IMG/VR virus record: IMGVR_UViG_3300024331_000152 | Span: 32,001-96,000 of that record | From: a virus | Taxonomy: Duplodnaviria; Caudoviricetes | Direction: 5' to 3' (one strand) | Length of the DNA: 64,000 bases | Part shown: positions 9,132 through 22,716 of the stretch, piece by piece | Numbering within the stretch: position 1 is the stretch's first letter | Layout of the letters: each line of letters opens with the position of its first letter | Translations under genes and position numbers: made by a program | The notes under the pieces: generated by a model | Database searches by the model: none | What the model was told of the DNA's origin: nothing | What the model saw: only the letters and a program-made list of their open reading frames with translations

Positions 9132-9207
9132 GTACCGGAAGGTAAAGGCTGGAACCAGCGGTCCGCAAAACCGCTTTTAGCGAGTTGAACTCTCGCCCGG
9201 TACTCCA
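9132..9207 (+). tRNA. tRNA-Cys(GCA)
   Basis: GCGGT-CCGCAAA-ACCGC, U73, CCA. Confidence 0.85.
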
Positions 9208-13216: not shown

Positions 13217-13291
13217 GGCTGTGTAGCTCAACCAGAGCACCCGTCTTCAAAACGGTAGGTTGCAGGTATACAACCCCTGTCACAGCCACCA
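13217..13291 (+). tRNA. tRNA with UCA anticodon (UGA-reading; atypical T-loop)
   Basis: CCGT-CTTCAAA-ACGG, acceptor GGCTGTG/CACAGCC, ACCA. Confidence 0.65.
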
Positions 13292-14418: not shown

Positions 14419-14735
14419 GCATGTAGAAGGCAACTAATCAGATTTCGGACGTGGGTTCGAATCCCACCGAGTCCACCAATCAGCTAACGCGCCGGGGCGA
14501 AACGCCTTGGTTCAACGAAAGTTCAGCTAAGAGTTAAAGCTGGTCCGTTGGCTGATTTGTGGGCTCGCCAAGGTTTCGACGGGATCAGAAGACGTTGTGC
14601 AGTTCATGCCGAGTGCTGTGGCCTGCGTTAAGGGACACGGAAAAAACAAATGCAGATGCTTCGGCACTGCCGATGGCAGCCTAAAAACTGACGTCTGAGG
14701 GTGGCCGCAATACTCATCAAAGAACCATGCGGCAC
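14419..14735 (+). ncRNA. ssrA: Permuted (two-piece) tmRNA, tag (A)ADASALPMAA
   Basis: 3' acceptor piece TTTCGGACGTGGGTTCGAATCCCACCGAGTCCACCA (ends 14478) precedes 5' piece GGGCTCGCCAAGGTTTCGAC (14561); G3-U70; tag ORF 14652-14684; outer boundaries approximate. Confidence 0.85.
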
Positions 14736-14745
14736 AAATACGCTA

Positions 14746-15150
14746 ATGCCTTACAAAGACAAAATTAAGCGTGCAGAGTATTGGAGGAATTATGTAATTG
14801 CCAACCCTCACGTCAAAACCAGAACTAAGACCGACAGGAAGCGCGAGAACGGCGAGGGCTGGGAGATTAAGAACCGCATCCCCTTCAAGATCTCGTGCTG
14901 CGATTGTGGTCTCGTCCATAATCTGGTTATCGTAGCTCCGAATACGAGAAAGGGCGCAGTCCTTGGCATCGCTGCGGAACGAAACGAGCGCGCAACCGGA
15001 CAGAAGCGCAGACATTTAGTGACGAACAAGCCAGAGACGCCTGAGGAGGCGGCGCGCAGACTAGGCGTGTCGAAGAAACGTCTCGAATCAATTCGCGAAA
15101 TTATGTCGCGCCCTGTGTTACGCTCAAAGCGAAAACACTTGAATCCCTAA
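14746..15150 (+). CDS. Hypothetical protein with CCDCGLVH zinc motif
   Basis: FKISCCDCGLVH motif common in phage proteins. Confidence 0.6.
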   Translation: MPYKDKIKRAEYWRNYVIANPHVKTRTKTDRKRENGEGWEIKNRIPFKISCCDCGLVHNLVIVAPNTRKGAVLGIAAERNERATGQKRRHLVTNKPETPEEAARRLGVSKKRLESIREIMSRPVLRSKRKHLNP

Positions 15151-15222
15151 GGCGTTCAGACCGCGAATCTGAGCGTCTCTTTTTTTCTTGACAACAGGCG
15201 CAGAGTTTCGTACCTTCTGTTC

Positions 15223-15711
15223 ATGCATTGAATCGCCAACACGCATTCATACGTTTTCGTCCGGTACGATCTCTCCCTCGCACAATCTGTAATCCAGTCG
15301 AGCCATGCTACCCATTCGATGGCTAATGGGCTCTCCCAGAGCCCTGAAGTTCCGCATATCGTTCTGATCGGCGTTCCAGACGTCAAGGCCCTTGAACGGG
15401 TCATTCAAAAACTCCGCGACAATCACATTGAATTTGCTGCCTTCGATGAGCCTGACGATAATCTCGGCTTGACGGCGGTCGCTACTGTTCCTCTCAACGA
15501 AGAGCAGAGACTTGTGTTCCAGAACTACAAGATCTGGACTGAAGAAGAATACTTTTACACGCGCGTAGCTCAGTGGTCAGAGCACTCCGGGAGGTTGACG
15601 GAGAGGTCGGCTGTTCGAATCGGTCCGCGCGTACCATGGGCGGTTCATTCGGTGATGTATCCGGTTCGAATCCGGTATCGCCCACCATGCGCGGTTAGCT
15701 CGACTATGTAG
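15223..15711 (+). CDS. PTH2-like peptidyl-tRNA hydrolase with in-frame UGA at codon 3
   Basis: ATG CAT TGA then in-frame YVFVRYDLSLAQSVIQSSHA...IVLIGV...FDEPDDNLGLTAVAT; leaderless promoter TTGACA-17-TACCTT. Confidence 0.7.
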
Positions 15712-15737
15712 AGGGGAAGATCCTCGCCCGCGCTCCA
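15559..15737 (+). ncRNA. Three tandem tRNA-like elements with CCA ends (15559-15636, 15638-15687, 15689-15737)
   Basis: Acceptor stems plus CCA; first has a 9-nt anticodon loop, second is essentially acceptor plus T-arm, third is truncated. Confidence 0.65.
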
Positions 15738-15743
15738 ATTCGA

Positions 15744-15819
15744 GCGCTCGTGGCTCAGCGGCAGAGCGCCGGTCTTCAAAACCGGGTCAGCGTGGGTTCG
15801 AACCTCACCGAGCGCTCCA
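15744..15819 (+). tRNA. tRNA with UCA anticodon (UGA-reading), Gly-like acceptor
   Basis: CCGGT-CTTCAAA-ACCGG; G1-C72, C2-G71, G3-C70, U73; short variable loop. Confidence 0.8.
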
Positions 15820-22646: not shown

Positions 22647-22716
22647 AGGGGATGATCTGGGATCGACGAGGTCTCCAAAACCTCACAGCGGAGTTCAATT
22701 CTCCGATCCCCTGCCA
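22647..22716 (+). tRNA. tRNA-Trp(CCA)
   Basis: GAGGT-CTCCAAA-ACCTC, G73 CCA. Confidence 0.85.

What the first reader, a model, noticed from the sequence alone, without database searches (positions are those of the whole stretch)
15188..15819. Peptidyl-tRNA hydrolase gated by an AUG-CAU-UGA minigene and co-transcribed with a UGA-reading tRNA
Seen: TTGACA-17-TACCTT puts +1 at or near the A of ATG CAT TGA (15223-15231). The same frame continues into the conserved PTH2 N-terminal motif (YVFVRYDLS..Q..IQ.SHA), which lies before the next ATG (15319), so a full protein appears to need UGA read-through. A well-formed tRNA(UCA) with Gly-type acceptor and U73 lies downstream at 15744-15819. Established: lambda bar-type minigenes cause peptidyl-tRNA drop-off, which Pth relieves. 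Inference: this is a sensor of RF2 or termination failure, or a suppressor-dependent switch for translation rescue.
Basis: partly seen in the sequence, partly recalled or inferred. Interest (0 to 1): 0.8.

Follow-up and report, generated by a model that had tools for sequence, protein, structure and literature searches.

The report
Suppressor-tRNA-gated phage Pth2-like gene
A soil phage with the normal genetic code keeps a UGA stop as the third codon of a tRNA-hydrolase-like gene and carries UGA-reading tRNAs, while its closest relatives keep UAG and UAG-reading tRNAs instead, so the gene is probably a natural switch made only when the stop is read through, which gives the puzzling suppressor tRNAs of many cultured phages a concrete target.

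Summary
Observation confirmed. In this 143-kb code-11 phage (likely acidobacterial host) a probably leaderless mRNA starts ATG-CAT-TGA and continues in frame into a Pth2-fold protein; tRNA(UCA) lies 190 nt past the core and a second at 13217. The stop is conserved: 36 of 46 distinct homologous loci and 8 of 8 cultured phages inspected have ATG+1-12 codons+stop in frame (all TAG except this one, none TAA; background 12%). The window nests in a TAG/CUA clade, so stop and both anticodons switched together. Four 'ungated' homologues sit behind stop-containing leaders (most with xPP arrest-type motifs, one with an anti-SD hairpin): same logic, read-through = ON. Here the ORF also lacks its own stop and runs into an anticodon-less tRNA-like RNA and two 50-nt mini-tRNAs (possible non-stop/tmRNA second lock). 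Gate: about 0.8. Purpose as release-factor sensor: about 0.4. The bar-minigene idea is unsupported, and the Pth2 catalytic Lys/Thr are not kept, so hydrolase activity is unproven. No publication found; the XacN1 paper could not find its suppressors' targets, and its ORF364 is one. This scan found the system before on other DNA (at least 68 genomes, opal versions included). No experimental or read data.

The parts
13217..13291 (+). Second tRNA with UCA anticodon; non-canonical (5-nt D-loop without GG, enlarged T-loop), A73, CCA encoded
   Evidence: Rfam tRNA 49.1 bits; sequence; relatives likewise carry 2-3 tRNA(CUA), one often aberrant
14419..14684 (+). Phage permuted tmRNA (tag ends in AA); candidate second-lock partner, not proven part
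   Evidence: Rfam RF04321 78.4 bits; ARAGORN
15150..15187 (+). Terminator-like hairpin and U-tract insulating the operon from upstream
   Evidence: fold z -3.1
15188..15216 (+). Sigma70-type promoter (perfect -35, weak -10) placing +1 at or near the ATG: leaderless mRNA (inferred)
   Evidence: 35-36 nt -35-to-ATG spacing, no SD, in window, L001, L010, L021, L027, L028
15223..15231 (+). Gate: start codon, His codon, in-frame UGA followed by A
   Evidence: equivalent early TAG in 35 other distinct loci and 8 cultured phages
15223..15711 (+). Pth2-fold ORF (core to about 15552; 162 aa if UGA is read and the RNA is uncut); no stop before the tRNA-like RNA
   Evidence: family of 3051 clusters at 50% identity
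15559..15636 (+). tRNA-like RNA with normal acceptor, D and T arms but a non-functional 9-nt anticodon loop (ARAGORN calls it Thr); overlaps the ORF
   Evidence: orthologues with variable or tetraloop-capped arms in six related loci
15638..15687 (+). Mini-tRNA 1 (50 nt: acceptor stem, short hairpin, T-arm, A73, CCA)
   Evidence: 2 found in window vs 0.03 expected in shuffles; same class in 12 related loci
15689..15737 (+). Mini-tRNA 2 (49 nt, Gly-type acceptor, U73, CCA); contains the ORF's TAG
15744..15819 (+). Opal suppressor tRNA(UCA): 76 nt, Trp-type anticodon arm, Gly-type acceptor; not tRNA-Sec
   Evidence: near-identical acceptor, D and anticodon stems to a CUA tRNA of L038

Best explanation
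A natural read-through gate. Shown by sequence comparison: the gene starts at ATG 15223, its third codon is a stop kept by selection, and the stop always matches a stop-reading tRNA of the same genome (UGA/UCA here, UAG/CUA in relatives). Inferred: host synthetase charges tRNA(UCA), most likely with Gly; at codon 3 it competes with host RF2; termination gives a dipeptide, suppression gives the Pth2-fold protein. Output therefore reports the ratio of charged suppressor to free release factor. Most likely purpose (about 0.4 of the purpose question): a gauge of termination/rescue failure during infection that switches on an enzyme recycling blocked tRNA 3' ends (peptidyl- or acyl-tRNA). In this clade a second lock is inferred: RNase P cutting at 15559 would leave a non-stop mRNA whose product tmRNA tags for decay, as for arfA/brfA, so the protein survives only when trans-translation is also overloaded.
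For: 36/46 distinct loci gated in frame (35 TAG, 1 TGA, 0 TAA) against 12% background; 8/8 cultured phages with SD-led start and TAG at codon 3-4, all with tRNA(CUA). Window nested in a supported 7-row clade whose six other members have TAG; it has two tRNA(UCA) and no CUA. Second UGA/UCA case L049. Independent architectures with the same sign: UAG leaders ending in RAPP/RDPP/RSPP-type motifs before anti-SD hairpins (motif class PMC12992588). Other gene families carry the same early TAG. Purine after the stop in 29/36. No RF gene in the genome. Non-stop 3' end or C-terminal RGPP in many homologues.
Against: No expression, charging or read-through data; reads unavailable. TGA ends about 30% of this phage's genes and is not avoided relative to CUA phages (p=0.88), so suppression must be weak or transient. 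One gated phage record (G402, 89% complete) shows no CUA tRNA; four loci show no gate. Two homologues have ATG right after the stop. Catalytic Lys and Thr of Pth2 are not kept. No trigger that lowers release factor during infection was identified.
Confidence: 0.7

Rival explanations
1. Same gate, different purpose: a coherent feed-forward timer or leak damper. The co-transcribed tRNA must be processed and charged first, which delays and tightly limits a potentially toxic enzyme (archaeal Pth2 also cleaves fMet-tRNA, own knowledge).
For: Gene and tRNA share one operon; the engineered equivalent removes leaky expression (PMC7969014); timing by suppressors is proposed for recoded phages (10.1101/2021.08.26.457843).
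Against: In many phages the tRNA lies kilobases away under another promoter; chromosomal Chloroflexota cassettes have no infection clock; arrest-leader design is typical of sensors.
Confidence: 0.25
2. Negative feedback: the Pth2-fold protein deacylates or otherwise limits the suppressor tRNA (or the mini-tRNAs), capping read-through whose real benefit lies elsewhere.
For: All architectures turn the gene ON with read-through; invariant Arg11, His25, Pro74, Asp75 and near-invariant Gln22, Glu73, Thr81 could form a changed active site; stop usage is not adapted to a strong suppressor.
Against: Suppressor acceptor stems are very diverse, so there is no shared identity element; no beneficiary of read-through beyond the gated genes was found.
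Confidence: 0.13
3. No decoding of the stop: ribosomes terminate and reinitiate at codon 4 or at ATG 15319; the tRNA is a bystander.
For: L001 and L027 have ATG directly after the stop; gene callers use the later ATG.
Against: Codon after the stop is mostly GTT/GTC/GTA/ATC and others that are not starts; reinitiation would not need frame, would not exclude TAA and would not track the anticodon; ATG 15319 removes strand 1 and helix 1 with invariant Arg11 and His25.
Confidence: 0.09
4. The minigene is a lambda-bar-like peptidyl-tRNA drop-off device.
For: Two-codon ORFs can cause drop-off (PMC8012679); many homologues have 2-3 codons.
Against: Leader length 2-13 codons and second codon vary freely; TAA never used; no route from drop-off to more Pth.
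Confidence: 0.04
5. Pseudogene or sequencing error, or a genome recoded at UGA (code 4/25).
For: Single assembly, reads unchecked; 3' frame differs from some relatives.
Against: TAG to TGA needs two changes and two tRNAs changed in step; TGA ends 48 of 145 long ORFs; no other credible TGA-gated gene; both 3' frames occur in relatives.
Confidence: 0.02

Closest known systems
Stop-codon-recoded phages with suppressor tRNAs (codes 15, 4, 25; Borges et al., 10.1101/2021.08.26.457843)
   Same: Phage tRNA reading a stop codon makes genes with in-frame stops translatable in a standard-code host; regulatory use proposed.
   Different: Genome stays code 11; one stop at the very start of one or a few tRNA-related genes, not many stops in late genes; also uses arrest leaders; occurs as a bacterial chromosomal cassette too.
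prfB (RF2) autoregulation at an early in-frame UGA (PMC5009743)
   Same: Early stop as a gauge of release-factor level; bypass yields the functional protein.
   Different: Bypass is by a dedicated suppressor tRNA in frame, not +1 frameshifting; product is not a release factor; UAG or UGA interchangeable.
Pth2 peptidyl-tRNA hydrolases (PF01981; 1wn2, 1xty, 3erj) and Pth2-fold proteins such as Atu0240 (2gax); phage PTH2 noted in PMC7824862
   Same: Fold (Z 10.9, 101 residues, rmsd 2.8); N-terminal Arg/Asp, Gln, His motif; some relatives pass the Pfam cut-off.
   Different: Catalytic Lys is Gln/Asp, Asp is Glu, Thr is Asp/Asn; EPD motif; window protein does not hit PF01981.
arfA / brfA non-stop mRNA control by trans-translation (PMC8012679)
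   Same: ORF whose transcript would be cut before a stop, next to a tmRNA.
   Different: Cut would be made by tRNA processing of an embedded anticodon-less tRNA-like RNA; only inferred; limited to one clade.
RAPP/RGPP arrest-peptide leaders (SecM, ApdA, ApdP; PMC12992588)
   Same: In relatives: short leader, RxPP motif, anti-SD hairpin over the next gene.
   Different: Motif is reached only after reading a stop; absent from the window locus itself.
Synthetic suppressor-tRNA 'leak dampener' (PMC7969014)
   Same: Co-expressed suppressor tRNA gates a gene with a nonsense codon; works with amber and opal.
   Different: Engineered; this is a natural counterpart.

Membership tests
Pth2 peptidyl-tRNA hydrolase | Pth2 alpha/beta fold | tested here: met
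   Model pLDDT 75; Foldseek E 4e-5 to 2zv3/3erj; VIA Z 10.9 to 1wn2, next unrelated 5.4
Pth2 peptidyl-tRNA hydrolase | PF01981 above cut-off | tested here: not met
   No hit for window protein; relatives L068 28.1 and XacN1 25.3 bits pass 23
Pth2 peptidyl-tRNA hydrolase | Catalytic Lys18/Asp86/Thr90 (numbering and role from own knowledge) | tested here: not met
   By profile alignment: Gln 29/Asp 11 of 44; Glu 43; Asp 22/Asn 20; Thr position rests on spacing only
Pth2 peptidyl-tRNA hydrolase | Hydrolysis of peptidyl-tRNA | not testable with these tools
   needs assay
Stop-codon-recoded phage (code 4/25) | Many genes with in-frame TGA, TGA not used as stop | tested here: not met
   TGA ends 48/145 ORFs; no other credible TGA-gated gene
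Stop-codon-recoded phage (code 4/25) | Cognate suppressor tRNA | tested here: met
   two tRNA(UCA)
Selenocysteine system | About 95-nt tRNA-Sec with long variable arm, SECIS after UGA | tested here: not met
   76-nt canonical tRNA, best Rfam match RF00005; no stable hairpin after the UGA
prfB-type autoregulation | Slippery CUU-U site with internal SD; product is a release factor | tested here: not met
   ORF continues in frame 0; no RF-1 family match in genome
lambda bar minigene | Specific 2-codon ORF causing peptidyl-tRNA accumulation | tested here: inconclusive
   2-codon ORF present, but length and codon not conserved; accumulation untestable
arfA/brfA-type non-stop control | Transcript cut or ended before the stop and tagged by tmRNA | tested here: inconclusive
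   ORF overlaps a processable tRNA-like RNA in window and six relatives; cleavage and tagging not testable

The most novel reading that the evidence does not exclude
A dedicated, widespread termination-failure response: suppressor tRNA as sentinel competing with release factor, double-locked by tmRNA, inducing a Pth2-fold enzyme that works with the co-transcribed anticodon-less and mini tRNAs as peptide acceptors or decoys to free stalled ribosomes without release factors, probably against an undescribed host defence that attacks termination or tRNA ends.
Probability: 0.15. Interest if true: 0.93.

Novelty: new variant of a known kind. Interest (0 to 1): 0.77.

Why it matters
Suppressor tRNAs in standard-code phages have had no known target; the XacN1 authors searched and found none (PMC5852040), yet XacN1 ORF364 and unannotated genes in Serratia phage BF, Yersinia fHe-Yen9-03 and Ralstonia RsoM2USA start with this gate. 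That makes the question testable in cultured phages, corrects annotation across a family of about 3000 clusters, shows stop-codon read-through used as a regulatory input without recoding, and offers a stepping stone toward full recoding. The window supplies a natural compensatory change (UAG/CUA to UGA/UCA). It also points to an unknown stress on termination and to an undescribed class of 50-nt CCA-ended RNAs.

Tried and rejected
Single-sequence locus scans found nothing; the alignment was needed. Pattern scans for more TGA-gated genes or the same tRNA in viral contigs gave no family member. Stop-usage test showed no TGA avoidance. Gene X of the Chloroflexota cassette: no Pfam/PHROG, no fold match (best Z 3.2), atlas uninformative, absent from this genome. 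Only 1 of 401 Chloroflexota genomes had the Pth-like gene with one query. Papers on Pth2 active site were not held. Six literature searches found no description of the gate or of the mini-tRNAs; subscription papers are not covered. Rejected: tRNA-Sec, Thr tRNA at 15559, genome recoding. No complex prediction was run.

Full report
Context. The window lies in a 142,794-bp phage record, CheckV-complete, GC 53%, with 36+ tRNAs and a permuted tmRNA. It uses code 11: of 145 long ORFs 54 end in TAA, 48 in TGA, 43 in TAG. The best named hits of its SSB are Acidobacteriaceae, so the host is probably acidobacterial (inference). It encodes no class I release factor.

Observation. Promoter-like boxes, ATG CAT TGA at 15223-15231, the continuing frame and the tRNA(UCA) at 15744-15819 are all present. 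The -10 box is weak, but the -35-to-ATG distance is 35-36 nt with no SD in six distinct loci, which fits a leaderless mRNA. A second, aberrant tRNA(UCA) lies at 13217-13291; no tRNA(CUA) exists in the genome.

The protein. It misses Pfam PTH2 but its model matches Pth2 structures (Foldseek E 4e-5; Z 10.9 over 101 residues), and two relatives pass the Pfam cut-off. Starting at ATG 15319 would delete the first strand and helix with invariant Arg11 and His25. The positions of the Pth2 catalytic Lys, Asp and Thr (own knowledge) hold Gln/Asp, Glu and Asp/Asn: it is a Pth2-fold protein whose activity is unproven. The family has 3051 clusters at 50% identity.

The stop is conserved. Among 46 distinct homologous loci with intact 5' ends (30-63% identity), 36 have ATG, 1-12 codons and an in-frame stop directly before the core: 35 TAG, the window TGA, no TAA. 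For long open frames of this genome the chance rate of such an upstream ATG is 51/414. Leaders are unrelated in sequence; only the stop is fixed, and a purine follows in 29 of 36, a context that favours suppression (own knowledge). All eight cultured phages inspected have an SD-led start with TAG at codon 3 or 4; in fHe-Yen9-03, BF and RsoM2USA the gene is unannotated. All eight carry tRNA(CUA). The loci are related, so counts are not independent events, but the gate spans the whole tree.

Stop and anticodon covary. The window sits in a supported seven-row clade whose other six members have TAG; its tRNA(UCA) shares acceptor, D and anticodon stems with a CUA tRNA of L038. A distant locus, L049, pairs tRNA(UCA) with a TGA leader. 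The anticodon arm is Trp-type, so a path through TGG/CCA would keep pairing at each step (inference). Acceptor and U73 are Gly-type, so Gly is the likeliest inserted residue; acceptors differ widely among relatives, so the residue does not matter and the tRNA acts as a key. Exceptions: G402 (89% complete) has the gate but no CUA tRNA found; four loci show no gate; two have the leader split by an insertion.

Same logic, other wiring. Four homologues with a normal start lie behind a stop-containing leader; in L023 the DPP codons after TAG pair with the SD of the Pth-like gene (-27.8 kcal/mol). Chloroflexota contigs carry tRNA(CUA), a Met-Leu-TAG leader with RAPP/RDPP/RSPP, an anti-SD hairpin, an unknown gene X and a TAG-gated Pth-like gene ending near RGPP. 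These motifs are arrest-prone and the most avoided tetrapeptides in bacteria (PMC12992588). In every design read-through turns the gene on. Some phages gate further genes alike, including an HD-like domain, fused to the Pth-like domain in XacN1 and RAS14.

The 3' end. The window ORF has no stop before 15709 and runs through a tRNA-like RNA with a non-functional anticodon loop and two 49-50-nt CCA-ended mini-tRNAs. Six close relatives share the overlap, in either of two frames, and the minis recur in 12 loci with changed stems (2 observed vs 0.03 expected). tRNA processing at 15559 would leave a non-stop mRNA, the principle that puts arfA and brfA under tmRNA control (PMC8012679); the phage tmRNA lies 540 nt upstream. 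This second lock is inferred and clade-limited.

Mechanism. Shown: start, conserved stop, matched tRNA, fold. Inferred: charging, competition with RF2 at codon 3, full-length product only on suppression (about 0.8). Purpose: termination/rescue sensor about 0.4, timer or leak damper 0.25-0.3, negative feedback on the suppressor about 0.15. TGA is not avoided in this genome relative to CUA phages (p=0.88), so suppression is likely weak or conditional, which suits a sensor but also warns that activity is unproven. The bar-minigene reading is not supported.

Comparison and novelty. It works like suppressor-controlled genes of recoded phages and like prfB's early UGA but is a member of neither; its engineered twin is PMC7969014. 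Phage PTH2 genes are known (PMC7824862); their gating is not, as far as six searches show, and PMC5852040 states that no target of XacN1's two CUA tRNAs could be found. Earlier unchecked notes of this scan report the same system in at least 68 other genomes, opal versions too; I reached the conservation result before reading them and do not count them as support. Particular to this locus are the nested double switch, the leaderless start and the non-stop end with mini-tRNAs. Verdict: real, new variant of a known kind, interest 0.77.

Noticed in passing
window 14419-14684: Phage-encoded circularly permuted tmRNA with a tag ending in two alanines.
   Followed up: partly
window 15638-15737; L001, L004, L011, L026-L030, L032, L035, L040: Conserved class of 45-52-nt CCA-ended mini-tRNAs (acceptor + T-arm); one subtype has a core resembling tmRNA's tRNA-like domain. 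No Rfam match or paper found.
   Followed up: partly
L037 and L038, directly after the first tRNA(CUA): tRNA(CUA) genes with an extra inserted arm (two anticodon-like arms).
   Followed up: no
L073:2037-2474 and P0172-P0291: Gene X: helical 145-155-aa family (623 clusters, Chloroflexota and phage) always between the UAG leader and the Pth-like gene; no known fold.
   Followed up: partly
L073:1834-1907, L100, L102, L104: Chloroflexota tRNA(CUA) has A8, G14, U21 instead of U8, A14, A21: possibly a tuned-down suppressor.
   Followed up: no
L014-L018, L034, L042: About 690-bp insertion with an opposite-strand ORF splits the TAG leader from the Pth-like core and supplies a new SD and ATG.
   Followed up: no
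L004:6106, L022:4930, L024:4746, L079:4899: Other gene families (Cys-rich small proteins, HD-like) starting with ATG, 1-2 codons, TAG: a small regulon.
   Followed up: partly
L077:5295-5369 (Salmonella phage Arash): tRNA annotated as Phe has a CUA anticodon by ARAGORN.
   Followed up: partly
L084: Decayed Pth-like copy beside a Hen1-like RNA-repair gene in the Anaerolineae genome.
   Followed up: no
window 9132-9207 and 22647-22712: Weak tRNA-Cys and tRNA-Trp seen only at relaxed threshold; no clear tRNA-Phe in the arrays.
   Followed up: no
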